Positions 1 through 55,684 of a stretch of 61,972 nucleotides of DNA are shown one piece after another. Below the pieces are notes generated by a model. The model was given only the letters and a program-made list of their open reading frames with translations, was not told the origin of the DNA and searched no databases. The stretch lies in assembly GCA_964550165.1 (NCBI GenBank), contig CAZJYC010000005.1, positions 1-61,972 of the forward strand, given 5' to 3'. The stretch is from an uncultured Eubacteriales bacterium (GTDB taxonomy: Bacteria; Acidobacteriota; Aminicenantia; Aminicenantales; Aminicenantaceae). Numbering within the stretch: position 1 is the first letter of the stretch; each line of letters starts with the position of its first letter. The translations under genes and the position numbers were made by a program.

Positions 1-103
1 CGAAGGGCAGCTCGGGAAGGCTAAACCTTCAATGGTCGCTTCGGCCATCTCTGAGGGCCTTTTTGTTACCAAAAACTCCTTCACCCAAACAAAATGGAAG
101 AGA
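1..103. repeat. Right-arm fragment of a MITE-like element, truncated by the window start. Same family as the complete element at 18277-18508.
   Basis: Bases 20-103 (ccttcaatggtcgcttcggccatctctgag...cacccaaacaaaatggaagag) align to 18444-18508 (ccttcaatggtcgcttcggccatctctgag...cacccacacaaaagggaaga). The start of the element lies upstream of the window. Confidence 0.6.
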
Positions 104-9118: not shown

Positions 9119-9189
9119 TTTAGCCAATCCGGGATGCAATTCAAAATATAGCCATTCATCTGGGATTAGTCAACTGGAACTTTCCAAGA

Positions 9190-9336
9190 GCTCCGGGTAG
9201 CGGGCTCAAAAACACGCGGGCTTTGCCCCAGCGAGGCAAAGCCCGCTCGGTTTCAGGCTTCGCTCTCCTCTCCCTTCGGTCGAGGAACCGTGCCCGCTCA
9301 GCCTTCAAACGGTTTTCTCGTCCGCAACCCTCCGCT
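9190..9336 (+). repeat. A-type dispersed intergenic repeat (MITE/REP-like), copy 1
   Basis: gctccgggtagcgggctcaaaaacacgcgggctttgccccagcgaggcaaagcccgctcggtttcaggcttcgctctcctctcccttcggtcgaggaaccgtgcccgctcagccttcaaacggtttt. Near-identical to 55536-55682 in reverse orientation and to 38468-38647. Confidence 0.8.
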
Positions 9337-9432
9337 AAATAAGAATGGAGAGATCACTTTTAATAATTATGAGAAGGGGAAGTTTTTATTCTGCTAAGAT
9401 AACAAGCTTTTTAAAATTAATTTTAGTTTTTA

Positions 9433-9470
9433 GGGCTCCGGGTAGCAGGCTCAAAAATACGGCGCTTTTT
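9433..9470 (+). repeat. A-type repeat, 5'-arm fragment
   Basis: gggctccgggtagcaggctcaaaaatacggcgcttttt matches the head of the A-type repeat. Confidence 0.6.
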
Positions 9471-9553
9471 GGCTTGGCATGTTCTGGAGAGAATAAATGT
9501 GGTTCTTTACAAGAAATAATGGCTTTGATAATATAAGGTTTAATGCAAAAGTC

Positions 9554-11131
9554 ATGAAAAGAAAGATATTTCTTTTTTTTATCCTCACCCTAATCCTGAT
9601 TCTTCCTCTCGCCAAAAATGAGGACATCTGGAGCCAATCTCTCCAGAAAATGTCTGTCATTTTTTCTCTTGTAGAGCAGAATTACTATAAAGAGATAAAT
9701 TCTGAGGAATTAACCTATTCCTCGATCAGGGGGATTGTCCAAACTTTGGACCCTCATTCTTATTTCCTGGATCCGAGCCATTTTTCTCGCTTGATGGAAG
9801 AGCACGAAGGAAAATACTACGGCTTGGGAATCATGATTCAAAAGCAGGATGACCGGCTGGTCGTCATTTCTCCGCTTGAGGGATCTCCAGCTTACAGGTT
9901 GGGGATTCAGCCCGGGGACGTCATTTCCCATATCAACGGGGAGAGCACGAAGCCCATCTCAAGCTATGACGCCATGCAAAAGCTGAGAGGGCCAAAAGGA
10001 ACAAAGGTGACTATCACCATCGTTCGCGAAGGATTGGAAAAGCCTTTGGAGCTGACCATAGAGCGAGAGGAAATTCCTCTCTACAGCGTTCCCTATTCCT
10101 TCATTCTTCAGGATGACATTGGGTACATCTATATTCGTAATTTTGCCACAACCACAACCAAGGAATTCCAGGAAAAAATGGAATTCTTGGCCAAACAGGG
10201 CATGAAAAGGCTCATTCTCGATCTGAGGTGGAATGGAGGCGGGACTTTTCTTCAATCTTTGGAGATCTCGGACGAATTTCTCCCGAAGGGCGCTCTGGTC
10301 GTGACCATTCAAGGCAGGAACAAAAGGTACAGCAGGGAGTTCCGGGCTATTGAGGACAACCAGTACGAAGGCATCCCTCTGGTTGTCTTGATCAACCGCG
10401 GCAGCGCCAGTGCCCCTGAAATCTTGAGCGGTGCCATCAAAGATAATGACAGAGGGGTGATTGTTGGTGAGGATTCTTTTGGAAAAGGTCTCGTCCAGAC
10501 AGTCATTGCTCTCCAGGAGGATGCTGCCTTGGCCTTAACCACAGCCAGGTATTTCACCCCCAGCGGAAGGTCCATCCAGAGAGACTACAATAATCTCGAT
10601 GATTGGATCGTGAGGAAGGAACTTCCTGAGGAAAAGAGAGAAGTGCGGTATACAGCTAAAGGAAGGAAAGTCCTGGGCCAGGGAGGCATTGCTCCAGACT
10701 ATAAGGTCGGGACCTCGGGTCACGCCGTCACCCTTGAGCTTCTCTCCAACGGCGCCTTTTTTGCTTACGGCCGGAAATTTTCAAACAGGGATACTCCTCT
10801 CTCAAAAAAGTTTATCTTTCCTAAGGACATGCAGGCGTCCAGCCGCGTGATGAGCGGCGGAAAAGTCATCGGAAAAGACTTTTCAGCGGACTCTCAGGTT
10901 CTGGAAGATTTTAAGGCCTTTCTCCAGTCGAACAAGATCCGCTATGACCGGGATCAATTTAAAGAAGCCGAAGAGGAAATCACAAGAGAGCTTAATCGAG
11001 AGATCATCTCTTCTATCTGGGGGATTGAGGAGGGCGTTAGGGATTACCGCAAACATGACCCAGTTGTCATGAAAGCCATAGAAGTCTTGCCAGAGGCAGA
11101 GGCGCTGGTCCAGAAACCCGGGAAAAAATAA
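9554..11131 (+). CDS. ctpA: C-terminal processing (tail-specific) protease, S41 family, with a PDZ domain
   Basis: Signal peptide from MKRKIFLFFILTLILILPLA. PDZ region GLGIMIQKQDDRLVVISPLEGSPAYRLGIQPGDVI. S41 motifs LILDLRWNGGG and GSASAPEILSGAIKDNDRGVIVGEDSFGKG. Confidence 0.85.
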   Translation: MKRKIFLFFILTLILILPLAKNEDIWSQSLQKMSVIFSLVEQNYYKEINSEELTYSSIRGIVQTLDPHSYFLDPSHFSRLMEEHEGKYYGLGIMIQKQDDRLVVISPLEGSPAYRLGIQPGDVISHINGESTKPISSYDAMQKLRGPKGTKVTITIVREGLEKPLELTIEREEIPLYSVPYSFILQDDIGYIYIRNFATTTTKEFQEKMEFLAKQGMKRLILDLRWNGGGTFLQSLEISDEFLPKGALVVTIQGRNKRYSREFRAIEDNQYEGIPLVVLINRGSASAPEILSGAIKDNDRGVIVGEDSFGKGLVQTVIALQEDAALALTTARYFTPSGRSIQRDYNNLDDWIVRKELPEEKREVRYTAKGRKVLGQGGIAPDYKVGTSGHAVTLELLSNGAFFAYGRKFSNRDTPLSKKFIFPKDMQASSRVMSGGKVIGKDFSADSQVLEDFKAFLQSNKIRYDRDQFKEAEEEITRELNREIISSIWGIEEGVRDYRKHDPVVMKAIEVLPEAEALVQKPGKK

Positions 11132-11488
11132 TATTATCCAGCTTCCCAAGCGGACAATTCCTCGTTATTCTTGCCTTCCCCATCATCTTTTAATCTCAAA
11201 AGTTTTTTTCTGGGTCATATCTTGTTAAAGTCTCAAAAATATTTCAAGGGCAGTCATCATTTCTTGATTAATCCGAATGCATGAGGTCAAATCTTCTGGA
11301 ATCCCTGTCGTGATTCGTCTGGCTATCCTAAAATCAGTCAAACCGGGGCAACAATCCAATGATATCCGATGTTTCACACCGGTTAAAATACTGCTATAAT
11401 TGCAGGCTGAGGATAGCCAAAAAGAAATCTGCTTTTTAATATATAAGATGTTCGGATAATTTATACCCTAAGAAAAGGAGCATGAATC

Positions 11489-12931
11489 ATGTCTTCATTC
11501 TATGAAAAAGTCAATGCCTTATCTCAAAGAATCATTGGAAACAATAATTGGAGGCAGGGGGAATCCTTTAACCTTATTCCCTCAGAGACCTCTCCCTCTT
11601 TATCGGTGAAGATGTGCGAAATCTCTGACCCATCCGGGCGCTACGCGGAGCACAGGACGATGAAGGGAGAAGAAGTTTATTTTTATCAAGGAACGGATTT
11701 CATCAGAGATGTTGAAATAGAGGTGCAGCAGGAGCTTTGCCGTTTCTTCAACTGCAGTGATGTCGAATTGAGACCGATAAGCGGACAGATGGCCAACGAG
11801 GTTGTGTTCAAAGGAATGGTTCGCTTCTTGAACCGCGAAAGACCTCAGGGGCAGCCAATGCGGAAGATGAGGCTGGTCATGAACAATGAGCTGACCAAAG
11901 GAGGGCATCTCAGTTCTCAGCCTATGGGCGCTCTCTTCAACTATGTCGAGGAGGATCCGCAAACAGGAAAGGAAAAGGTGATCAATTTTCCTGTCCTCAA
12001 AGAAAATCCCTATAAACCCGACCTTGAAAGACTCAAGGAGCTTATGGCGGAGAATAAGCCGGAGCTCCTAATTTTTGGCAAGAGCATGTTCCTTTATCCG
12101 GAGCCCATTCAGTTTGTTTTTGATTTGGTCAAGGACTGGGACGTTCGTCCCGTTATCATGTACGATATGGCCCACGTGCTCGGACTCTACGGAGTTTTTC
12201 AGATGCCTTTCGAAGAAGGCGCGGATGTTGTCACTGGAAGCACGCATAAAACCTTTTTTGGGCCTCAGAGAGGTTTGGTCGCAGGCAATTTTCCCAAGGA
12301 AAGCCCTCTGCGTAAATTATGGGTGGATATCAAGAGTCGTGCTTTTCCAGGTTCGACGAGCAATCATCATCTCGGGACTCTTCTGGCCCTCCTGATGGCA
12401 ACCTATGAAATGAATGAGTTCAAAGAAAGTTACCAGAAACAGGTGAGAAGCAATGCCAGAGCCTTTGCCCGTGCTTTAAGAGACGAGGGGATTCAGGTGG
12501 AAGGGGATGAGAAAGGCGGATTTACAGAAACACACCAGGTGGTCATCCGGGTCAAGGCCTATGGCAATGGCCAGGAGATTGCCCGGCGGCTCGAAGAGAA
12601 TAATGTCATCACAAATTACCAAGCCTTGCCCGACGACGAGACATTTCTTGAATCGAGCGGAATCCGCATGGGTGTCCAGGAAATGACACGCTTCGGGATG
12701 GTCGAGAAAGATTTCGATGTACTCTCCGGATTTATCGCTGATGTGATTATTAAAAATAAAAAGGTCAAAGAAGAGGTCAAAAAATTTCGGAAAGACTTCC
12801 TTCAGATGAGATTCTGCCTGCCGCTTGAGCAGGCCCTCCCCCTTGCCGTCAGAATCCTGAAAAGCGTCGTCCATACCCCGCGGTTCTCCGACGTTTTCAT
12901 CGCAAATATGGAGAAATTATCTCAGGAATGA
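11489..12931 (+). CDS. Serine hydroxymethyltransferase-family PLP enzyme (divergent GlyA-like, 480 aa)
   Basis: FNLIPSETSPS compares with GlyA ELIASENFTS. GSTHKTFFGPQRGLV compares with GlyA TTHKTLRGPRGG, the PLP-lysine region. Followed directly by purD and purE. Confidence 0.55.
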   Translation: MSSFYEKVNALSQRIIGNNNWRQGESFNLIPSETSPSLSVKMCEISDPSGRYAEHRTMKGEEVYFYQGTDFIRDVEIEVQQELCRFFNCSDVELRPISGQMANEVVFKGMVRFLNRERPQGQPMRKMRLVMNNELTKGGHLSSQPMGALFNYVEEDPQTGKEKVINFPVLKENPYKPDLERLKELMAENKPELLIFGKSMFLYPEPIQFVFDLVKDWDVRPVIMYDMAHVLGLYGVFQMPFEEGADVVTGSTHKTFFGPQRGLVAGNFPKESPLRKLWVDIKSRAFPGSTSNHHLGTLLALLMATYEMNEFKESYQKQVRSNARAFARALRDEGIQVEGDEKGGFTETHQVVIRVKAYGNGQEIARRLEENNVITNYQALPDDETFLESSGIRMGVQEMTRFGMVEKDFDVLSGFIADVIIKNKKVKEEVKKFRKDFLQMRFCLPLEQALPLAVRILKSVVHTPRFSDVFIANMEKLSQE

Positions 12932-13001
12932 AGAGGTCCAGAGTTTTGTTGACTTGAAGACCCTTTTTTTGTCAGAATGGTAAAAAAAATGAGGCCCTGA
13001 G

Positions 13002-14282
13002 TTGAAAATTTTGGTAATTGGCTCTGGAGGGAGAGAGCACGCGTTAGCCTGGAAAATCGCTCAAAGTCCGCGCGTCAAAAAAGTGTATTGTGCTCCTGGA
13101 AATGCAGGAACGATGAGTGTGGCCCAGAACGTCCCCATCAAAGATTCTGACATCAGAGGATTGCTGGATTTTGCCTCCAGAGAAAAGGTTGATTTGACTG
13201 TGGTCGGGCCGGAGCTTCCGCTATCTCTTGGCGTCGTTGATGAGTTTGAGAGGCGAGGATTAAAAGTGTTCGGGCCCAACAAAAAAACAGCCGAGCTGGA
13301 AGGAAGCAAGGTCTTTGCCAAGCAGTTTATGGAGCGCTATAAAATTCCCACGGCTAGATATAAAATCGCCGAATCTCCTCAGAAGGCCAAGGAGGTTATT
13401 AACTCGGGCGAATTTTCATTTCCTCTTGTTGTTAAGGCTGATGGATTGGCCGCCGGAAAGGGAGCTGTGATCTGCAAGAGTCCGGAAAGAGCCGAAGAAG
13501 TTGTCCACACCATAATGATCGAAAAGCAGTTCGGTGAGTCTGGCAAAAGAGTTCTTGTTGAGGAATGTTTGACCGGAAAGGAAGTCTCTTTTATCGTCCT
13601 TTCCGATGGCAAGAAAGTGATTCCCCTTGTGACCACAATGGACCACAAGCCTGTCTATGACGACGACAAAGGTCCGAACACCGGAGGGATGGGAACGATT
13701 TCCCCTTCTCCTTTTATCAATAAAGAGCTTTTCTTTAAAATTATGGAATCCATCGTTTTTCCCACCGTGATCCATATGCATGAGGAAGGGAGGAAGTATA
13801 AAGGTGTCCTCTATGTGGGATTGATGCTGACCAGGCAAGGTCCCAAGGTCCTGGAATACAACTGCCGCTTCGGAGACCCGGAGACCCAGCCTCAGATGCT
13901 GAGGATGGAGACCGACCTTGTCGATGTCCTTCTTGCTGTCGTGGAAGAAAGAGCGATGGATAAAGAAATCAAGTGGAGTCGAAAGCCCTCAGGCTGCGTG
14001 ATTCTGGCTTCGGGCGGATACCCGGTGAAATACGAAAAGGGCAAGAGAATCGAGGGCTTATTGGAGGCCTCAGAGTATCCGGGTGTCACCGTCTTCCATG
14101 CGGGGACAAAGTTTGACAAAGGGAATTATTATACTGACGGCGGAAGAGTTTTGGGAGTTTGCGCTTCGGAAGATACATTGGCCGAAACCATGCAAAAAAT
14201 CTACAAAGGCATCTCTCTCATATCTTTTGAAGCCATGCATTTCCGCGGCGATATCGGCGTCAGAAGGGGGAAGGAAGAATGA
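13002..14282 (+). CDS. purD: Phosphoribosylamine--glycine ligase
   Basis: (M)KILVIGSGGREHALAWKIAQSPRVKKVYCAPGNAGT and ATP-grasp motifs. TTG start at 13002. The nearest upstream ATG runs into a stop. Confidence 0.85.
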   Translation: MKILVIGSGGREHALAWKIAQSPRVKKVYCAPGNAGTMSVAQNVPIKDSDIRGLLDFASREKVDLTVVGPELPLSLGVVDEFERRGLKVFGPNKKTAELEGSKVFAKQFMERYKIPTARYKIAESPQKAKEVINSGEFSFPLVVKADGLAAGKGAVICKSPERAEEVVHTIMIEKQFGESGKRVLVEECLTGKEVSFIVLSDGKKVIPLVTTMDHKPVYDDDKGPNTGGMGTISPSPFINKELFFKIMESIVFPTVIHMHEEGRKYKGVLYVGLMLTRQGPKVLEYNCRFGDPETQPQMLRMETDLVDVLLAVVEERAMDKEIKWSRKPSGCVILASGGYPVKYEKGKRIEGLLEASEYPGVTVFHAGTKFDKGNYYTDGGRVLGVCASEDTLAETMQKIYKGISLISFEAMHFRGDIGVRRGKEE

Positions 14283-14770
14283 AAGTTGCCATTTTCATCG
14301 GAAGCGATTCAGATTATGAGGTTGTCCGGGACGCTCTGGAGATACTCAAAAAATTCAAGGTTCCTTATTCGCTGGAAGTGACTTCTGCCCATCGTACTCC
14401 TGAAAGAACCCTTAAGCTCGTAAAATCCTTTGAAGAGGCAGGCGCTGAAGTTTTTATTGCTGCTGCTGGCAAGTCGGCTCATTTGGCCGGATTTGTCGCG
14501 GCTCATACAATCCGGCCTGTCATCGGAGTCCCTGTTTGGGATTTGACTTTGAACGGACTGGATGCCCTTCTCTCCACTGTTCAGATGCCAAAAGGAGTTC
14601 CAGTGGCGACCATGGGCCTAGGCCAATCTGGAGCTTCCAATGCGGCCCTGCTGGCCATCCAAATCTTGAGCTTGAAAGAGCCTAACTTGAGGGAGAGGAT
14701 GAGGAATTTTCGGGATAAGATGGCCGCGCAAATCGAGAGCGAATCAAAAAAAATCCGACAAAGACTGTGA
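14279..14770 (+). CDS. purE: N5-carboxyaminoimidazole ribonucleotide mutase
   Basis: MKVAIFIGSDSDYEVV...SAHRTPER...AGKSAHLAG. ATGA overlap with purD. Confidence 0.85.
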   Translation: MKVAIFIGSDSDYEVVRDALEILKKFKVPYSLEVTSAHRTPERTLKLVKSFEEAGAEVFIAAAGKSAHLAGFVAAHTIRPVIGVPVWDLTLNGLDALLSTVQMPKGVPVATMGLGQSGASNAALLAIQILSLKEPNLRERMRNFRDKMAAQIESESKKIRQRL

Positions 14771-16020
14771 CTTCTTTTGCGATCCAAACCTTTGGCTGTC
14801 GCGTGAATCAGGCAGAGGCCTTTCTCTGGTCTGATGAATTCCAGAAGAATGGGCTAAAGTACAAAGAGAATTTTTACCGCAGCGATTTGGTGGTCGTCAA
14901 TTCCTGCACTCTCACCAGCCGGGCAGACAGTGATCTGAGAAGCTTTATTCGAAAGGTTTCCTGTCTGAATCCGAGAGCAAAGTTGGTCGTTACGGGCTGT
15001 TTTGCGCAGCGGGCCTCTGAAGAGTTGAGAAGGATGCCGCAGGTCTGGCGCATTTTTCCCAACACAGAGAAAGACGATTTGGCCCGGGAAGTTCTTTCCG
15101 TTTTTGGCTCGAAAAGAAAAAATCCAGTCCTGGCTTTCCGCTCTCGCGCCCTGGTTAAGATTCAGGATGGATGCAATTTTCGCTGCACTTTTTGTATCAT
15201 TCCCAGTGTCAGAGGCCGAAGCAAGAGCGCAGAGAAGGAAAAAACCCTGAATCAAATTCAGGAGTTCATCGCTCAAGGATTTAAGGAAATCGTACTGACA
15301 GGAATTCATCTCTGCTCTTATGGGGCTGACCTCACGCCCAAAATATCATTCTTGGAGTTAGTTCGAGAAATAGAGAGAGTCGATGGCCTCCTCAGGTTAA
15401 GGCTGAGTTCTCTTGATCCCAGATTCTTGAAACCCGGTTGGATTGACTGCCTCACGTCGAGCGGGAAGATATGTCCTCACTTTCATCTCTCGTTGCAGAA
15501 TGGCTCAGACAGAATCCTGGAGCGGATGGGCCGGAAGATAAAGACAGAACAATACAAAGGAATTCTTCATGATTTGCGCGAGAAATCTCCTTTGGCATCC
15601 TTGGGAGCCGATATTATCGTCGGATTTCCAGGAGAAAGCGAGGATGATTTTGCGCAGACCTATTCCTTTCTCGAGCAATCGCCCTTAACCTATTTTCACG
15701 TGTTCACCTACTCCCCTCGTCCTGGGACCGCTGCAGCATCCTGGCCGCAGGTCGAAAGCAATCTCAAAAGACAGAGAGCAGCACTCCTGAGGGATCTCTC
15801 CAGGAAGAAAAATGCGAGCTTCCGCAAGCTCTTTGTAGGAAAGGAATGTAATGGCATTGTGATAAAGAAAGAGAGAGCAAGGACTGAAGTTCTGACATCC
15901 AATTATCTCAAGGTTTTTATTCCTTCCTGTCCTTATCAGGAAAAAGAAGAGGTTAGAGTCAGAATTGTCAAGGCCGACGGAGGAACAACAGGGGAATTAA
16001 TCCATTCAGCCAATTCTTAG
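14767..16020 (+). CDS. MiaB/RimO-family radical-SAM methylthiotransferase (MtaB-like)
   Basis: FAIQTFGCRVNQAEA MTTase N-domain. Radical-SAM CNFRCTFCIIP. C-terminal TRAM-like region. GTG start overlaps the purE stop. Confidence 0.75.
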   Translation: MTSFAIQTFGCRVNQAEAFLWSDEFQKNGLKYKENFYRSDLVVVNSCTLTSRADSDLRSFIRKVSCLNPRAKLVVTGCFAQRASEELRRMPQVWRIFPNTEKDDLAREVLSVFGSKRKNPVLAFRSRALVKIQDGCNFRCTFCIIPSVRGRSKSAEKEKTLNQIQEFIAQGFKEIVLTGIHLCSYGADLTPKISFLELVREIERVDGLLRLRLSSLDPRFLKPGWIDCLTSSGKICPHFHLSLQNGSDRILERMGRKIKTEQYKGILHDLREKSPLASLGADIIVGFPGESEDDFAQTYSFLEQSPLTYFHVFTYSPRPGTAAASWPQVESNLKRQRAALLRDLSRKKNASFRKLFVGKECNGIVIKKERARTEVLTSNYLKVFIPSCPYQEKEEVRVRIVKADGGTTGELIHSANS

Positions 16021-16044
16021 TAACTATCCAGGGGTTTGTTTTCA

Positions 16045-16191
16045 ATGATACTTCCAGTTTCATTCTATTCCCGCCCGACCCTTGAAGTCCTGGAAGATCT
16101 CATCGGAATGGTTCTGGTCAGGCGTTCCCCGATTGGCTCTGCGGCCGGGATCATTGTCGAAGCAGATTTTATGATTTCTATCGGTAATTGA
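16045..16191 (+). pseudogene. Truncated remnant of 3-methyladenine DNA glycosylase (Mpg/AAG family). Only about 48 N-terminal codons remain.
   Basis: MILPVSFYSRPTLEVLEDLIGMVLVRRSPIGSAAGIIVEAD... matches the Mpg N-terminus (sFY.Rdtl.vA.dLLG.vLvr....G.IVEtEAY). The frame then stops after 48 aa, and mutL starts 15 nt later. Confidence 0.5.
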
Positions 16192-16205
16192 GCTAAAATG
16201 AAAAG

Positions 16206-17906
16206 ATGAAAAAAATTGTCATTCTGTCCCCTGAGATATCCCAGAAAATCGCTGCCGGCGAAGTCGTGGAGAGGCCCTTTTCTGCTGTCAAAGAGCTGGT
16301 GGAGAACTCTTTGGACGCCGGAGCTTCGGAGATAAAGGTTGAGCTTATCTCAGGAGGAAAAAAATTGATCAGGGTAATTGATAATGGGCAGGGGATGAGC
16401 CGGGAAGATGCTCTGCTCTGTTTTGAGAGGCATTCAACGAGCAAAATTTCAAGCGTGGAAGAACTTGACCGGATCTCAACTTTGGGATTTAGAGGAGAGG
16501 CTCTGCCCAGCATTTCCGCTGTTTCCAAGGTGATTCTAAAGACTTCTGACGGAAGCGCAGAACATGGAACGTTGATCGAGCGGGAAGGCGATAAATTTGT
16601 TCGAGTCTCGGATGTGGCCTTTCCCAGAGGGACAAGCGTTGAAGTCAGAGACTTGTTTTTCAATTTACCGGCAAGGAAGAAATTTCTGCGCTCCGATAGA
16701 TCAGAGTTGACCCTGACCGTAAAATACCTGTCCACAGTTTGCCTTGCCTATCCGCAAACCAGGTTCTCGGTGGCTCATGGAGAAAGGCAGCTCTTCGATT
16801 ATCCGCCGGTCGACACCCTCAGGGAGAGGATTTTTCAGGTATTCGGAAAATCCTCTCTGGAAAACCTGCTGGAAGTGGATTACAAAGAGGATGGCTGGAT
16901 GATCTCTGGGTACGCCTCACGCCCGCCTTCAGGACGTCGGGACAGAAGCTATCAGCATTTTTTTGTCAACAGACGCCCGGTCAAAGACAGAATCCTTCAG
17001 GCAGCCTTGAACCAGGCTTATCAAGGGTTTTTGGAAAAAGACAAATTTGCCGAAAGCGTCCTCTTTTTCTCCAGTCCTTATGAAGAAGTGGATATCAATG
17101 TCCATCCAGCCAAAGCCGAAGTCAGGTTTAGAGACTCCGGCCGTGTTTTTCAGCTTGTCGTCCGCAGCCTCGGACAGGCCGTGCTTAGAGAAAAAGGAAT
17201 CAAAGAGATTTATCCCGCTCAAGAAGAAGAGAAAAGAGCCCTGCGGATCAAAGAAGAGAGTGCTGCCGCCATCTTTCCGGCTAAAAAAGCAGCTGAAATT
17301 CGCGAACAGGATTTATTCCCGCCTTTGGCCAAGCAAGAGAAAATCTACCCGCGCGCTTTGGGTCAGTATCTTGACACCTACATCGTTGCTCTCACTGAAG
17401 AAGGAATCGTCGTTCTCGATCAGCACAATGCTCATGAAAGAGTTCTTTTCGAGCAGTACGAAGAGATCCACAGAAAGAAGAAGTGGCCGAGGAAGCTGGC
17501 TCTTTGTCCCATTCTGTTTGAGCTTTCCCCTTCTCAGGTCTTGAGTCTCGAAAGCGATCAAGCGCTGCTCGAAGAAGCAGGGTTCCGGGTGGAGGCCATG
17601 GGCAGCCGGAGCTATGCTTTAAAGGAGTATCCGGATATTCTCAAGGATCTGGAAGCAAAGGACATTCTGCTTTCGCTCCTTGAAGAAATGAAAGAAGAAA
17701 AGGTCGAGGACAAGAAGAGGAAAATGCTGGCCACACTGGCGTGCAAGACAGCAGTCAAGGCTGGACAGCCCCTCTCTCTAGAGAAGATGAATTATCTGGC
17801 GGAGGAGCTCTTCAAGACATCCCATGCGGCGCTTTGCCCCCATGGAAGACCTGTCATGATCAAGATGGCAAAAAGAGAAATCGAGAGGGCTTTGAAGAGG
17901 CGCTGA
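16206..17906 (+). CDS. mutL: DNA mismatch repair protein MutL
   Basis: ILSPEISQKIAAGEVVERPFSAVKELVENSLDAGASEIKVEL GHKL ATPase N-terminus. 566 aa. Confidence 0.9.
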   Translation: MKKIVILSPEISQKIAAGEVVERPFSAVKELVENSLDAGASEIKVELISGGKKLIRVIDNGQGMSREDALLCFERHSTSKISSVEELDRISTLGFRGEALPSISAVSKVILKTSDGSAEHGTLIEREGDKFVRVSDVAFPRGTSVEVRDLFFNLPARKKFLRSDRSELTLTVKYLSTVCLAYPQTRFSVAHGERQLFDYPPVDTLRERIFQVFGKSSLENLLEVDYKEDGWMISGYASRPPSGRRDRSYQHFFVNRRPVKDRILQAALNQAYQGFLEKDKFAESVLFFSSPYEEVDINVHPAKAEVRFRDSGRVFQLVVRSLGQAVLREKGIKEIYPAQEEEKRALRIKEESAAAIFPAKKAAEIREQDLFPPLAKQEKIYPRALGQYLDTYIVALTEEGIVVLDQHNAHERVLFEQYEEIHRKKKWPRKLALCPILFELSPSQVLSLESDQALLEEAGFRVEAMGSRSYALKEYPDILKDLEAKDILLSLLEEMKEEKVEDKKRKMLATLACKTAVKAGQPLSLEKMNYLAEELFKTSHAALCPHGRPVMIKMAKREIERALKRR

Positions 17907-18013
17907 AAATTGACATCGATGGGCCCTTTTGCTAAGATAACTCACGCTAAAATCTTGAATAATCTTCCAGGATGCCCGCTCGGGCGATAAGATCTTCATC
18001 AAGCCGAAAGTCT

Positions 18014-18088
18014 CGGGGAGTAGCGCAGCCTGGTTAGCGCGCCTGCCTTGGGAGCAGGAGGTCATCGGTTCAAATCCGATCTCCCCGA
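18014..18088 (+). tRNA. tRNA-Pro (anticodon TGG)
   Basis: Cloverleaf read by eye: acceptor cggggag/ctccccg, D-arm gcgc-agcctggttagc-gcgc, anticodon arm cctgc-cttggga-gcagg, T-arm atcgg-ttcaaat-ccgat. Confidence 0.8.
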
Positions 18089-18156
18089 TTGAAATTTAGG
18101 TTGTGGAAGAAATCGTTTGGATATAGATGTCAATTGTGATAGAAAAATATTAAGTT

Positions 18157-18230
18157 GCGCCTGTAGCTCAGGTGGATAGAGCAGCTGCCTTCTAAGCAGC
18201 GGGTCGGGGGTTCGAGTCCCTCCAGGCGCG
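18157..18230 (+). tRNA. tRNA-Arg (anticodon TCT)
   Basis: Acceptor gcgcctg/caggcgc, D-arm tagctcaggtggatagagca, anticodon arm gctgc-cttctaa-gcagc, T-arm gggggttcgagtccctc. Confidence 0.8.
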
Positions 18231-18276
18231 CATTCCATTTCTGTTAAGACCCTTGTGAGAATAAGGTTTTTGGCTC

Positions 18277-18508
18277 TCTTCCCTTTTGTGTGGCTTATCT
18301 GAAAGCCTCTCCAGGATGGCCTCGCTCCCCTTCAGGTTTTTAACGCCGTTCCCTCGCAGCCCTTCTTGGCGGCTGCGGATCGCTCCGGCTAAGCGGTTCG
18401 AAAACACGCGGGCTTTGCATCACCTGGCGAAGCCTTCAATGGTCGCTTCGGCCATCTCTGAGAGGCTTTCTGTTACCCCTATCTTCTTCACCCACACAAA
18501 AGGGAAGA
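18277..18508. mobile_element. Complete composite MITE-like element (about 232 bp) with about 45-bp imperfect terminal inverted repeats. An A-type repeat fragment is nested inside.
   Basis: Left end tcttcccttttgtgtggcttatctgaaagcctctccaggatggcc. Right end ggccatctctgagaggctttctgttacccctatcttcttcacccacacaaaagggaaga. The outer 17 nt are perfect inverted repeats. The interior carries gctccggctaagcggttcgaaaacacgcgggctttg, which is an A-type repeat head. Confidence 0.75.
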
Positions 18509-27193: not shown

Positions 27194-27367
27194 TCGAGCT
27201 GATATCTGCTCTCACCTCAGCCACTTCTTGCAAAATTCTTTATCCCTTAAATCCTTCCTTTTTAACTCCGCATTCATCCAATCCTTTCCTGATAGAGTTT
27301 GTCCCTGCCTTTAAATCCTGAACAAAATAAAAAGGCTCTCTGCTGGTTAAACGTAAACTTGATTGAT

Positions 27368-27476
27368 TCTCTTCCATTTTGTGTGGCTTATCTGAGAACT
27401 TCTCAGAGATGGCCTCGCTCCCCTTCAGGTTTTTAACGGCGTGCCTTCGAGCCCATCTGCCTGAGCCAGAAGCAAT
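27368..27476 (+). repeat. MITE-like left-arm copy (B-type half of the element)
   Basis: tctcttccattttgtgtggcttatctgagaacttctcagagatggcctcgctccccttcaggtttttaacgg aligns with 18277-18355. Confidence 0.7.
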
Positions 27477-38447: not shown

Positions 38448-38467
38448 TCAATTTTCTCTTTCAAGGT

Positions 38468-38647
38468 GCTCCGGCTATGCGGTTCAAAAACACGCCGCTT
38501 TTTCCCCAGCGAGGCAAAAGCGGCTCGGTTTCAGGCTTCGCTCACAGAAAAAGGGGACTGTCCCTTTTTATTAGAGGGACAGTCCCCTTTTTCTGCACCG
38601 TGCCCGGCTCAGCCTTCAAACGGTTTTTTCACCGCATAGCCTCCGCA
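38468..38647 (+). repeat. A-type dispersed repeat, copy with TIRs and an internal 46-nt perfect palindrome insertion
   Basis: Head gctccggctatgcggttcaaaaacacgccgc. Tail gttttttcaccgcatagcctccgca, which is the inverted complement of the head. Internal hairpin aaaaaggggactgtccc-tttttattaga-gggacagtccccttttt at 38547-38592. Confidence 0.8.
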
Positions 38648-38752
38648 CAGCATAGAATAGGCCGGCAATAAAATAGCAGTCTGAAGAGATACATTTCTCC
38701 AAGAAAAGGAAGAGAATCAAGTTGGATGATAAACTGAATGAGATTAAATACA

Positions 38753-38816
38753 GGGCTCCGGCTATGCGGTTCAAAAACACGCCGCTTTTCTGTCTTGAGC
38801 CACTCTGCCTGAGCCT
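38753..38816 (+). repeat. A-type repeat, head fragment
   Basis: gggctccggctatgcggttcaaaaacacgccgcttttctgtcttgagccactctgcctgagcc. The gcctgagcc tail also ends the copy at 27368-27476. Confidence 0.65.
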
Positions 38817-38917
38817 TCCTTTTTTATCTTTGACACGGGCTTTTGTCTTGTGATAATTTTAGCAACAAAAAAATGGCCATTCTGGCTGAACGAGCTTACT
38901 AAAAAGGAGGAGAAAAT

Positions 38918-55435: not shown

Positions 55436-55535
55436 TGCAGTTAATAGATAAAATAAAATACCCTCTTTGTCAAATAGAGCGGGGGCGGATTTTCAAACTT
55501 AATTTATCAAACCCTAAGTTTGACGCAATTCAAAG

Positions 55536-55682
55536 CGAAGGCTGAATGGCGAAAAAACCGTTTGAAGGCTGAGCGGGCACGGTTCCTCGACCGAAGGGAG
55601 AGGAGAGCGAAGCCTGAAACCGAGCCTCTTTTGCCTCGCTGGGGCAAAAGAGGCATGTTTTTGAGCCATTTAGCCTGAGCTC
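55536..55682 (-). repeat. A-type dispersed repeat, full copy in reverse orientation
   Basis: The reverse complement reads gctcaggctaaatggctcaaaaacatgcctcttttgccccagcgaggcaaaagaggctcggtttcaggcttcgctctcctctcccttcggtcgaggaaccgtgcccgctcagccttcaaacggtttttt, near-identical to 9190-9336. Confidence 0.8.
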
Positions 55683-55684
55683 TC

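What the first reader, a model, noticed from the sequence alone, without database searches (positions are those of the whole stretch)
9190..9336. Second dispersed repeat family (A-type, about 150 bp) occupying intergenic regions. At least 5 copies or fragments in this window.
Copies lie at 9190-9336, 9433-9470 (fragment), 38468-38647, 38753-38816 (fragment) and 55536-55682 (reverse orientation), plus the nested fragment at 18390-18440. Each has a head gctccgg(g/c)ta(g/t)cgg(g/t)tcaaaaacacg and a tail that is its approximate inverted complement (...ccgtgcccgctcagccttcaaacggtttt), and a conserved core cccagcgaggcaaa(g)...ggtttcaggcttcgctc. They sit preferentially in divergent promoter regions (tatA<>ctpA, lpxK<>BNR gene). 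That placement is typical of REP/MITE elements that can modulate transcription or encode small RNAs.
Basis: seen in the sequence. Interest (0 to 1): 0.6.

Follow-up and report, generated by a model that had tools for sequence, protein, structure and literature searches.

The report
Structured palindromic repeat family of Aminicenantes
The finding is real: it is a roughly 150-base non-coding repeat that folds into a branched hairpin, occurs many times in genomes of the uncultured phylum Aminicenantes and comes and goes between related genomes, so it is a new example of the small mobile palindromic repeats already known from other bacteria.

Summary
**Observation: confirmed.** The window holds three full copies: 9189-9336 (+), 38467-38647 (+) and 55534-55681 (-). 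It also holds head-only or miniature fragments at 9435-9469, 38755-38815 and 18382-18422.

**Distribution.**
- There are no matches in viral contigs, plasmids, phages or Rfam.

**Structure.**
- The element folds as a three-way junction.
- A long outer stem (P1) and hairpin P2 differ in sequence between copies but stay paired: 95% and 90% paired in two independently anchored alignments, with 0 of 500 shuffles as high.
- The junction strands, the P2 loop and an AAAAC/GTTTT clamp are nearly invariant.

**Mobility.**
- Orthologous sites in related genomes are filled, empty or hold other repeats.
- There is no target-site duplication.
- Other repeat families sit in its hairpin loops, and it sits at the centre of other palindromes.
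- No transposase was found nearby.

**Interpretation.** This is a non-autonomous REPIN- or MITE-like element recognised by its fold. It is tolerated between divergent promoters and after stop codons.

**Verdict:** a new member of a known kind, of moderate interest. The enzyme that moves it and the strand that matters are unknown.

The parts
9189..9336 (+). Full copy 1, lying between the divergent -35 boxes of tatA and ctpA.
   Evidence: Profile E = 4e-45. RNA fold -62 kcal/mol, z = -3.8. Promoter-like sites lie at 9173-9145 (-) and 9506-9534 (+).
9190..9213 (+). P1 5' arm of copy 1 (GCTCCGGGTAGCGGGCTC plus the invariant AAAAAC). It pairs with 9313-9335.
   Evidence: Every pair in the two variable P1 helices shows changes on both sides between copies. 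In the inner clamp, 4 of 6 pairs never vary in the second alignment.
9216..9246 (+). P2 hairpin of copy 1. The stem is GCGGGCTTTGCC / GGCAAAGCCCGC and the conserved loop is CCAGCGA. On the opposite strand it is followed by GTGTTTTTGA, which looks like a terminator.
   Evidence: Stem covariation. Terminator-like hit on the - strand at 9246-9216.
9246..9265 (+). Conserved block C1 (CTCGGTTTCAGGCTTCGCTC), the 5' strand of helix P4'.
   Evidence: Identical in all three window copies. Present in 116 of 182 copies in this exact form. P4' pairs are compensated in variants.
9266..9286 (+). P3, a short variable hairpin (TCCTC...GAGGA). Its loop is where other repeats are inserted in other copies.
   Evidence: Alignments A2 and A3. 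P3 pairs counted.
9287..9312 (+). Conserved block C2 (ACCGTGCCCGCTCAGCCTTCAAACGG), the 3' strand of helix P4'.
9313..9335 (+). P1 3' arm of copy 1 (TTTTCTCGTCCGCAACCCTCCGC).
9435..9469 (+). Head-only fragment, same orientation, about 100 nt after copy 1. It carries the same rare P1 variant as copy 1 (29 of 35 identical, 22 of the first 23).
   Evidence: E = 0.02 alone. Sequence read directly.
38467..38647 (+). Full copy 2, lying between the divergent lpxK and BNR-repeat gene promoters.
   Evidence: Profile E = 3e-36. Fold -97 kcal/mol, z = -11.8. Pfam LpxK and BNR. Promoter-like sites at 38464-38436 (-) and 38830-38857 (+).
38544..38595 (+). A long palindrome containing GGGGACTGTCCC / GGGACAGTCCCC. 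It takes the place of the short P3 hairpin in copy 2.
   Evidence: Alignment A1, fold, motif search. The same hairpin occupies P3 in L033, L041, L047 and L070. It also stands alone in L052, L103 and L230.
38755..38815 (+). Miniature copy. A 35-nt head identical to the head of copy 2 is followed by 7 nt and a tail-like end, GAGCCACTCTGCCTGAGCC. The core is missing.
   Evidence: (35 of 35 identical).
55534..55681 (-). Full copy 3. It starts a few bases after the stop codon of a 199-aa gene, in the same orientation as that gene, and lies upstream of the next gene's promoter.
   Evidence: Profile E = 2e-48. Folds. The orthologous site is empty in L141 and L210 and holds only a solo tail in L015.
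18382..18422 (+). Head-only fragment at the centre of a copy of another palindromic repeat family (B-type, 18270-18508).
   Evidence: families D2, D3, D5 and inverted pair I12; E = 3e-6.
27435..27469 (-). Weak end-like fragment (GAGCCCATCTGCCTGAGCC on the + strand) next to the second B-type left arm.
   Evidence: (E = 0.07). Marginal.

Best explanation
**What it is.** The element is a non-autonomous interspersed repeat of the REPIN / MITE / ERIC kind, specific to Aminicenantes. One copy is about 146-150 bp, encodes nothing, and folds on either strand into a three-way junction.

**Anatomy**
- P1 is a long closing stem whose outer part is free to vary in sequence as long as it pairs.
- An invariant AAAAC/GTTTT clamp closes P1 on the inside.
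- P2 is a hairpin with a variable stem and a conserved loop, CCCCAGCGAG.
- P4' is a helix made of two nearly invariant blocks, C1 and C2. It carries the small variable hairpin P3.

**Shown**
- Copies are gained and lost as discrete units between related genomes.
- There is no target-site duplication.
- Composites are gained and lost as units too.
- Insertions of other repeat families into the element fall in its hairpin loops.
- The element itself sits at the dyad of other palindromes and in the untranscribed spacer between divergent -35 boxes.

**Inferred**
- Copies are made, rarely, by an enzyme acting in trans. It would read the folded single strand, using the invariant junction strands and loop as sequence determinants and the stems as shape. 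This is the way Y1/HUH transposases read REP and IS200/IS605 hairpins.
- Hairpin tips, or the cruciforms extruded between divergent promoters, would be the preferred or the only tolerated landing sites.
- The A-run, GC-rich hairpins and T-run layout gives terminator-like signals in both directions. That would keep a copy transcriptionally inert and let it persist.
For: **Copy number and host range**
- More than 103 stretches in reference genomes, nearly all Aminicenantes MAGs, and 120 in metagenomes.
- 182 distinct full copies in 1.6 Mb.

**Structure**
- 24 of 37 predicted pairs keep pairing through changes on both sides.
- 95.2% of cells are paired against 82.5% in shuffles, 382 against 114 double-change cells, 0 of 500 shuffles as high, and slid controls reach at most 56%.
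- An independently anchored metagenome set repeats this: 90.4% against 80.0%, 428 against 132, 0 of 500.
- P4' pairs are compensated: G-C becomes U-A, A-U or C-G in 12 of 182 copies at one pair and in 6 at another.

**Gain and loss at orthologous sites**
- The tatA<>ctpA spacer between the two -35 boxes is 5 nt, about 30 nt, 332 nt (the window) and about 270 nt of nested repeats (CP070825).
- The site after the 199-aa gene holds a full copy, a solo tail, or nothing.
- Clean filled and empty pairs are L086/L160 against L002, L101 against L116, and L165 against L076.

**No target-site duplication**
- Direct-repeat scores of true flanks equal those of permuted flanks: 5.59 against 5.42 +/- 1.11, with 0 of 162 above the 99th percentile.
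- Inverted complementarity of the flanks is raised.
- The first flanking base pair pairs in 65 of 78 copies.

**Nesting at loops**
- The F-type repeat lies in the P2 or P3 loop.
- The GGGGACTGTCCC hairpin lies in P3.
- The A element lies at the centre of C-type, D-type and B-type palindromes.
- An inverted A-in-A composite accounts for 36 of 179 copies.

**Other points**
- Orientation relative to flanking genes is weakly biased or unbiased: 21 sense against 12 antisense.
- Terminator-like hits occur on the antisense strand.
- Compensatory changes in a long hairpin are also reported for REPINs (PMC3116915).
- Small pneumococcal repeats insert into one another, and one of them is terminator-like (PMC10969869).
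Against: **No enzyme identified**
- No transposase or other candidate enzyme was found.
- No multi-copy ORF family other than ordinary paralogues occurs near copies.
- No head and tail pair encloses a gene.
- No E. coli RayT homologue occurs in 1.65 Mb of sampled sequence. That sample is small and scattered over many genomes.

**No recent activity seen**
- No two copies at unrelated sites are more than about 96% identical.
- The family could therefore be old and largely immobile.

**Ambiguities**
- The restriction of insertions to loops could reflect selection on a functional fold rather than targeting.
- Which strand, and whether DNA or RNA, carries the selected structure is not resolved. A-C mismatches, which read as G-U on the other strand, outnumber G-U in P1 and P2 (74 against 34). 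These counts are not independent events.
Confidence: 0.6

Rival explanations
1. The element is mainly a host-recruited element acting in cis: a bidirectional transcription terminator or insulator, or an mRNA 3'-end stabiliser. Its copy number and fold would be kept by selection on that function, as proposed for REP/BIME, ERIC and SPRITE elements.
For: - The P2 hairpin followed by GTGTTTTTGA scores as an intrinsic terminator on the antisense strand.
- On the sense strand the P4'/P3 structure is followed by a run of 4-7 T.
- The A-run and T-run are invariant while the rest of P1 varies.
- Copy 3 starts a few bases after a stop codon, in sense orientation.
- Insertions are tolerated only at loops.
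Against: - Copies are not enriched in convergent spacers: 8 of 64, against 12% of all spacers.
- Two of the three window copies lie upstream of both flanking promoters, where nothing needs terminating.
- Orthologous sites work without a copy in related genomes.
- About 100 nt of invariant junction sequence is far more than a terminator needs.
Confidence: 0.15
2. The copies are genes for a family of small structured RNAs acting in trans, each transcribed on its own. The variable P1 or P2 sequences would act as specificity determinants.
For: - Strong compensatory covariation in a three-way junction with invariant unpaired strands.
- Low folding energies relative to shuffles.
- No match to any Rfam family, so it would be new.
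Against: - No promoter-like site lies within or directly before the window copies.
- There is no strand preference relative to neighbouring genes.
- Both strands fold equally well.
- Truncated, nested and composite copies are common.
- The variable stems are fully paired inside the element, not exposed.
- The copy number, about 3 full copies per 62 kb here, is far above that of known sRNA gene families.
Confidence: 0.05
3. The element spreads and stays palindromic without a dedicated transposase. Host replication and repair would act on hairpins through template switching, fold-back priming, gene conversion between nearby copies, and mismatch correction within an extruded hairpin. The arm-to-arm covariation would then be a mechanical by-product rather than a selected feature.
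For: - Complementarity extends 1-5 variable bases beyond the conserved ends.
- Head fragments near copies 1 and 2 of the window, and one in L055, carry the P1 variant of their own neighbour (35 of 35 and 29 of 35 identical in the window). That points to local conversion or partial duplication.
- No transposase was found.
- Orthologous sites hold rearranged versions, for example L026 against L066.
Against: - The centre of the element is not palindromic, so fold-back copying cannot create it.
- Dispersal to hundreds of unrelated sites needs a transfer step.
- The junction strands are nearly invariant across species whose flanking DNA is only 70-88% identical. That argues for recognition of specific sequence.
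Confidence: 0.12

Closest known systems
REPINs (REP doublets forming hairpins) mobilised by RAYT / TnpA-REP tyrosine transposases (PMC3116915, PMC8266576)
   Same: - Non-coding, intergenic and present in many copies per genome.
- Forms a long hairpin whose arms keep pairing through compensatory changes, while short blocks stay invariant.
- No target-site duplication.
- Old and apparently vertically persistent, with defunct single-arm remnants.
   Different: - No 20-40-nt REP unit with a conserved 5' tetranucleotide.
- The fold is a three-way junction with an asymmetric centre, not a symmetric doublet.
- About 150 nt long, against about 70-110 nt.
- No RAYT was found in the sequence sampled.
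- The host is a phylum in which the searches run here turned up no report of such a system.
Bacterial MITEs with folded transcripts: ERIC of enterobacteria, Correia/NEMIS of Neisseria, and RUP, BOX and SPRITE of Streptococcus pneumoniae (review PMC10969869)
   Same: - Length of 100-200 bp with inverted ends and an intergenic location.
- Stable predicted secondary structure.
- Elements insert into one another and cluster.
- One of them, SPRITE, is terminator-like.
   Different: - Those with a known partner have conserved terminal inverted repeats and a short target-site duplication (from general knowledge, TA for Correia and RUP). Here the ends vary and no duplication exists.
- No similarity to any Rfam family. 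The sequences of these particular repeats were not compared directly.
IS200/IS605-family ends and their miniature derivatives (single-strand, hairpin-guided Y1 transposition)
   Same: - No terminal inverted repeat is needed and there is no target-site duplication.
- Recognition is of imperfect hairpins in single-stranded DNA.
- This is a lead recalled from general knowledge of the family, not a tested relationship.
   Different: - No conserved target tetra- or pentanucleotide was seen at the left flank on reading the flanks by eye.
- The two internal hairpins are unlike each other.
- A long closing stem is present.
- No tnpA or tnpB gene was found nearby.
Insertion sequences that target hairpins of repeats (IS1397/ISKpn1 into REP loops, some IS110-family members into REP, class C group II introns after terminator hairpins)
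   Same: Insertion falls at or next to the tip of a pre-existing palindrome. This is recalled from general knowledge; IS1397 is cited in the reference list of PMC3116915.
   Different: Those are autonomous, protein-coding elements. Here both guest and host are small non-coding repeats.

Membership tests
Classical MITE (deletion derivative of a DDE insertion sequence) | Small, non-coding, many copies | tested here: met
   About 150 bp. 182 distinct full copies in 1.6 Mb of sampled loci.
Classical MITE (deletion derivative of a DDE insertion sequence) | Conserved terminal inverted repeats shared with a parent insertion sequence | tested here: inconclusive
   The ends are inverted complements, but their sequence varies between subfamilies. 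No head and tail pair enclosing a gene occurs in the sampled loci. Whole genomes could not be searched.
Classical MITE (deletion derivative of a DDE insertion sequence) | Target-site duplication (short direct repeats) at the flanks | tested here: not met
   Flank direct-repeat scores equal those of permuted flanks, with 0 of 162 above the 99th percentile. Filled and empty site pairs show none.
Classical MITE (deletion derivative of a DDE insertion sequence) | Insertion polymorphism between related genomes | tested here: met
REPIN-RAYT system | Two inverted REP units (20-40 nt, conserved 5' tetranucleotide) separated by a spacer | tested here: not met
   The element has an asymmetric centre made of P2, C1, P3 and C2. 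No repeated REP unit is present.
REPIN-RAYT system | Long hairpin kept by compensatory changes, with invariant blocks | tested here: met
   For comparison see PMC3116915.
REPIN-RAYT system | A single-copy RAYT gene in the same genome, flanked by the repeats | tested here: inconclusive
   tblastn with E. coli RayT against 1.65 Mb of loci and the window gave no hit better than E = 1.2. No complete genome could be scanned.
Any Rfam RNA family, including self-cleaving ribozymes, riboswitches and known sRNAs | Score at or above the family's gathering threshold | tested here: not met
   Only two tRNAs in the window reach threshold. The best sub-threshold hits over copy 1 score 22-23 bits, against thresholds of 47 and 72.
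Integron attC site | R''/L''-L'/R' architecture with a GTTRRRY core, next to gene cassettes and an integrase | tested here: not met
   The inner clamp reads GTTTTCT or GTTTTTT, not GTTRRRY. The neighbours are housekeeping genes.
Intrinsic (Rho-independent) terminator | GC-rich hairpin followed directly by a T-run | tested here: met
   On the antisense strand, P2 followed by GTGTTTTTGA is called in copies 1 and 3. Copy 2 gets only a weaker 5-pair call there. This is pattern only; function was not tested.

The most novel reading that the evidence does not exclude
The element may be the cis substrate of an unrecognised, long-resident mobilisation system in Aminicenantes. That system would read a three-way-junction fold in single-stranded nucleic acid and deliver copies to the tips or dyads of other hairpins. 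Several unrelated structured repeat families (here called A, B, C, D, F and the GGGGACTGTCCC hairpin) would use the same landing rule, giving the nested repeats seen. It would be a REPIN-RAYT-like partnership with a different substrate architecture, and possibly a different enzyme.
Probability: 0.25. Interest if true: 0.6.

Novelty: new member of a known kind. Interest (0 to 1): 0.35.

Why it matters
- **Extends the known range.** Structured, persistent, non-coding repeats of the REPIN/MITE kind would reach an uncultured phylum known only from metagenomes.
- **Unusually clear signal.** Stems vary freely but stay paired, while about 60 nt of junction sequence stays fixed across species. That separates the shape the mobilising or binding factor needs from the letters it needs.
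- **Practical use.** These repeats break short-read assemblies of Aminicenantes. One contig ends inside copy 1 and many loci have copies at contig ends. A profile of the family helps finish genomes, mask false ORFs and avoid mistaking copies for regulatory RNAs.
- **A testable question.** The nesting of several repeat families strictly at hairpin loops raises the question of how small non-coding DNA finds hairpin tips.

Tried and rejected
- **Rfam.** Searches at gathering and at permissive thresholds, over copy 1 and over an F-type insert, found nothing relevant.
- **Viral contigs, plasmids, phages.** No match, so no vector was identified.
- **A partner transposase.**
  - The genes next to three copies in the complete chromosome CP070825 are housekeeping genes.
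  - No head and tail pair encloses a gene.
  - The multi-copy ORF families near copies are ABC ATPases, response regulators and spurious ORFs that run over repeats.
  - E. coli RayT finds nothing.
- **False leads on insertions.** A 1.5-kb insertion in L052 relative to L064 is an ordinary gene, present in one and absent from the other, not an insertion sequence. A 167-nt difference between L021 and L101 is divergent spacer, not a repeat.
- **RNAalifold's pairing of C1 with C2.** Variants are not compensated in that register. A different register, P4', is partly supported.
- **A possible 15-nt flanking direct repeat in L101.** This is an isolated case and falls below the permutation threshold.
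- **Strand assignment from wobble pairs.** Inconclusive.
- **Literature.** A search for Aminicenantes repeats found nothing relevant.

Full report
**1. Observation**

The sequences at the reported coordinates are as described.

- Repeat detection recovers the 35-nt head at 9190, 9435, 18382, 38468 and 38755. The last two are identical.
- It also recovers a 150-nt inverted match between 9187-9336 and 55534-55683, 85% complementary.
- With one extra covarying flank pair on each side, the three full copies span 9189-9336 (+), 38467-38647 (+) and 55534-55681 (-).
- A profile built from 78 copies scores them at E = 4e-45, 3e-36 and 2e-48.
- The fragments score 3e-6 (18379-18422), 2e-5 (38752-38789) and 0.02 (9432-9469).
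- The fragment at 38755-38815 is really a miniature copy: a head, 7 nt, and a tail-like end.

**2. How widespread it is**

  - Nearly all are Candidatus Aminicenantes MAGs, including the complete chromosome CP070825.1.
  - MAGs labelled "uncultured Eubacteriales" or "Actinomycetota" share 70-88% nucleotide synteny with the Aminicenantes MAGs, so they belong to the same lineage.
- The 1.6 Mb fetched holds 182 distinct full-length copies.
- Nothing matches in viral contigs, plasmids or phages.
- Nothing matches in Rfam.
- A public contig identical to the window ends inside copy 1, and many loci have copies at contig ends. This is what a multi-copy repeat does to short-read assemblies.

**3. Anatomy**

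The three window copies align over their whole length. Copy 2 carries a 52-nt palindrome in place of the short inner hairpin. Both strands fold far better than shuffles: z = -3.7 to -6.8 for copies 1 and 3, and -11.8 for the one strand of copy 2 that was folded.

Seventy-eight copies were aligned as A2.

- RNAalifold predicts 37 pairs. In 24 of them at least one copy changed both bases and kept the pair.
- Counting pairs on that structure gives 95.2% standard pairs against 82.5% in column shuffles.
- It gives 382 against 114 cells changed on both sides.
- 0 of 500 shuffles are as high, and registers slid by 1-3 columns reach at most 56%.

An independent set of 82 metagenome copies, chosen with an anchor outside C1, C2 and the variable part of P1, was aligned as A3. 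A structure I wrote for it gives 90.4% against 80.0%, 428 against 132, and 0 of 500.

The parts are as follows.

- **P1** has about 15 variable pairs, all with double changes, for example GC:31, AU:30 and UA:10 at one position.
- **A clamp** of AAAAC/GTTTT closes P1 on the inside and almost never varies.
- **P2** has a covarying stem. Its loop, CCCCAGCGAG, is conserved.
- **C1 and C2** are nearly invariant blocks.
- **P3** is a short variable hairpin.

RNAalifold's pairing of C1 with C2 is not supported once copies with variant C1 or C2 are included. A different register, P4' (C1 CG.TTT.AGGC with C2 GCCT..AAACG), shows real compensation. One pair changes from G-C to U-A (6 copies), A-U (3) or C-G (3), and another is compensated in 6 copies. 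The fold is therefore a three-way junction of P1, P2 and P4'/P3.

The strand that matters cannot be assigned. In P1 and P2, A-C mismatches (which read as G-U on the other strand) outnumber G-U by 74 to 34. These are not independent events, and P4' is fully Watson-Crick.

**4. Evidence of gain and loss**

- **tatA<>ctpA.** The space between the two divergent -35 boxes differs between relatives.
  - It is 5 nt in one relative (L228) and about 30 nt in another (L227).
  - It is 332 nt in the window, made of copy 1, a spacer and the head fragment.
  - It is about 270 nt of nested repeats in CP070825 (L230).
- **After the stop codon of the 199-aa gene.** The window has copy 3, L015 has only a solo tail, and L141 and L210 have nothing.
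- **Between the FecCD permease gene and the 199-aa gene.** The four genomes have 32 nt, 135 nt, a D-type repeat, and an A copy respectively.
- **Collinear alignments interrupted in one partner only** give three clean cases.
  - A 216-nt composite, A inside a C-type palindrome, is present in L086 and L160 and absent from L002.
  - An A copy is present in L101 and absent from L116.
  - A 142-nt F-type repeat lies in the P2 loop of an A copy in L165 and is absent from the orthologous A copy in L076.
- **No junction shows a target-site duplication.** Over 162 copies, direct-repeat scores between true left and right flanks match those of permuted flanks (5.59 against 5.42 +/- 1.11, none above the 99th percentile). 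Inverted complementarity of the flanks is raised.
- **The first base outside the conserved ends pairs in 65 of 78 copies.** Pairing decays over the next 2-3 positions.
- **No two copies at unrelated sites exceed about 96% identity**. The family is old and there is no sign of a recent burst.

**5. Nesting**

Partial profile hits fall into a few classes.

- Copies are split by an F-type insert in the P2 loop (L006, L026, L035, L063, L094).
- Copies are split in the P3 loop by inserts of about 125-135 nt (L070, L078, L100, L103). In L100 and L103 the insert was read and is F-type.
- The GGGGACTGTCCC palindrome sits in P3 (window copy 2, L033, L041, L047, L070).
- In 36 of 179 full copies, an inverted head fragment lies 1-24 nt after the tail, matched by an inverted tail fragment before the head. 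This is a full copy sitting inside a core-less copy of opposite orientation. The composite recurs at many loci.

In turn, A copies sit at the centre of other palindromic repeats: C-type, D-type, and B-type in the window at 18270-18508. Every nesting event read at sequence level, at least eight distinct kinds, lies at a hairpin loop or dyad.

At one orthologous site the two genomes hold the same outer copy with different interiors, L026 against L066.

Same-orientation head fragments that carry their neighbour's own P1 variant occur only in the window (38755 and 9435) and in L055. Local gene conversion or partial duplication is the simplest reading, but it is not shown.

**6. Context**

- Pfam confirms TatA/TatC, CtpA-type S41 peptidase, LpxK and a BNR/sortilin-repeat protein as the neighbours.
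- With rough ORF-based gene calls, 64 classifiable copies fall in divergent (23), tandem (33: 21 sense, 12 antisense) and convergent (8) spacers. Of all spacers, 13% are divergent, 74% tandem and 12% convergent.
- So there is roughly threefold enrichment in divergent spacers, no enrichment at convergent gene ends, and no significant orientation bias. Orthologous loci are counted more than once, so these are soft numbers.
- Window copies 1 and 2 lie between the -35 boxes of divergent promoters and carry no promoter-like site of their own. They are probably not transcribed.
- On the antisense strand, P2 followed by GTGTTTTTGA is called terminator-like in copies 1 and 3, with only a weaker 5-pair call in copy 2. 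On the sense strand, P4'/P3 is followed by 4-7 T.

**7. Interpretation**

These are the properties of the small non-autonomous palindromic repeats of bacteria:

- high copy number and restriction to one lineage;
- discrete gain and loss;
- truncated and composite derivatives;
- intergenic location;
- no coding capacity.

The covariation shows that the fold, not just the sequence, is required. The invariant junction strands and loop show that something also reads specific bases. No strand bias, no promoters and placement upstream of promoters all argue against a family of RNA genes. Lack of enrichment at gene ends argues against a primary terminator role.

The absence of a target-site duplication fails the test for classical DDE-type MITEs. 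It points towards hairpin-reading, single-strand mechanisms such as REPIN/RAYT or IS200/IS605. That step is inference, because no enzyme was found.

Whether loops are targeted or are merely the only tolerated sites is open. Negative supercoiling between divergent promoters would favour cruciform extrusion there, which could explain either targeting or tolerance. This is speculation.

**8. Comparison and novelty**

- REPINs share the compensated long hairpin, the invariant blocks, the lack of a duplication and the persistence (PMC3116915). They are symmetric doublets of a short REP unit tied to a RAYT gene, which is not the case here or was not found.
- Pneumococcal BOX, RUP and SPRITE share mutual insertion and a terminator-like design (PMC10969869).
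- The family itself is not in Rfam, and a literature search for Aminicenantes repeats found nothing.
- I file it as a new member of a known kind. It has an unusual branched architecture and unusually clean structural covariation. Interest is moderate.

Noticed in passing
window 19-101, 18270-18356, 18426-18508, 27363-27449: A second palindromic repeat family (B-type). At 18270-18508 it has left and right arms that are inverted repeats of each other (18296-18321 / 18450-18475), with the A-type head fragment at its centre. It lies directly after two tRNA genes (18014-18088, 18157-18230).
   Followed up: partly
window 38544-38595; also L052:2960-3040, L230:2740-2820, and the flank of L103:3797-3955: A short palindrome, AAAAAGGGGACTGTCCC(C)TTTTT, shaped like a bidirectional terminator. 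It recurs in Aminicenantes loci both alone and inserted into the P3 loop of A-type copies.
   Followed up: partly
L026:2466-2630, L103:229-353, L100:3254-3387, L165:1295-1436: An F-type structured repeat of about 125-165 nt containing GGGGGAAC.GCGAAGC.GTTCCCCC and GGTCGCAGG.CGC...GCG.CC. It is found inside the P2 or P3 loop of A-type copies in either orientation. It is present or absent within an orthologous A copy (L165 against L076). It has no Rfam match.
   Followed up: partly
L009, L023, L027, L082, L083, L086, L230 (C-type); L004:5700-6010, L037, L079, L049, L141:7040-7200 (D-type): Two further palindromic repeat families. The C-type has ends like GCATCTCCAAA.CCGTGATG ... CATCACGGAAATGGAGATGC. 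The D-type has arms like CGACAGAGTCGGGCGGCGAGTATGT ... GGGAATGGCGTGAAAAATCTGAA. Both often hold an A-type copy at their centre, and the D-type also occurs without one (L141).
   Followed up: partly
window 9497-9560: The long ORF of ctpA starts at 9497, but a conserved promoter-like site (TTTACA, 17 nt, TAATAT at 9506-9534) lies inside that extension. Relatives (L228, L230) start at the equivalent of the ATG near 9556, so the true start is probably about 9556.
   Followed up: partly
L001 (Logan SRR8652713 contig), and many loci flagged as ending in a copy: Short-read contigs of these organisms often end inside A-type copies. L001 is 99.98% identical to window 9291-18333 and begins within the tail of copy 1.
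   Followed up: yes
L002-L104 record titles and synteny: MAGs titled 'uncultured Eubacteriales' (binchicken and SRP co-assemblies) and 'Actinomycetota' (FK_Sedi_B_Bin.138) share 70-88% nucleotide synteny and this repeat family with Aminicenantes MAGs. Their taxonomic labels look wrong.
   Followed up: partly
L052:2874-4433 against L064:4888-4909: A 425-aa gene is present in one genome. The other has only its last roughly 30 bases left, so a gene was deleted between genomes that are 85% identical. It is unrelated to the repeats.
   Followed up: partly
window 9435-9469 and 38755-38789; L055:264-312: Same-orientation head fragments lie 45-105 nt from a full copy and carry that copy's own rare P1 sequence variant (35 of 35 and 29 of 35 identical in the window). 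No mechanism was established. Local gene conversion or partial duplication is suspected.
   Followed up: partly
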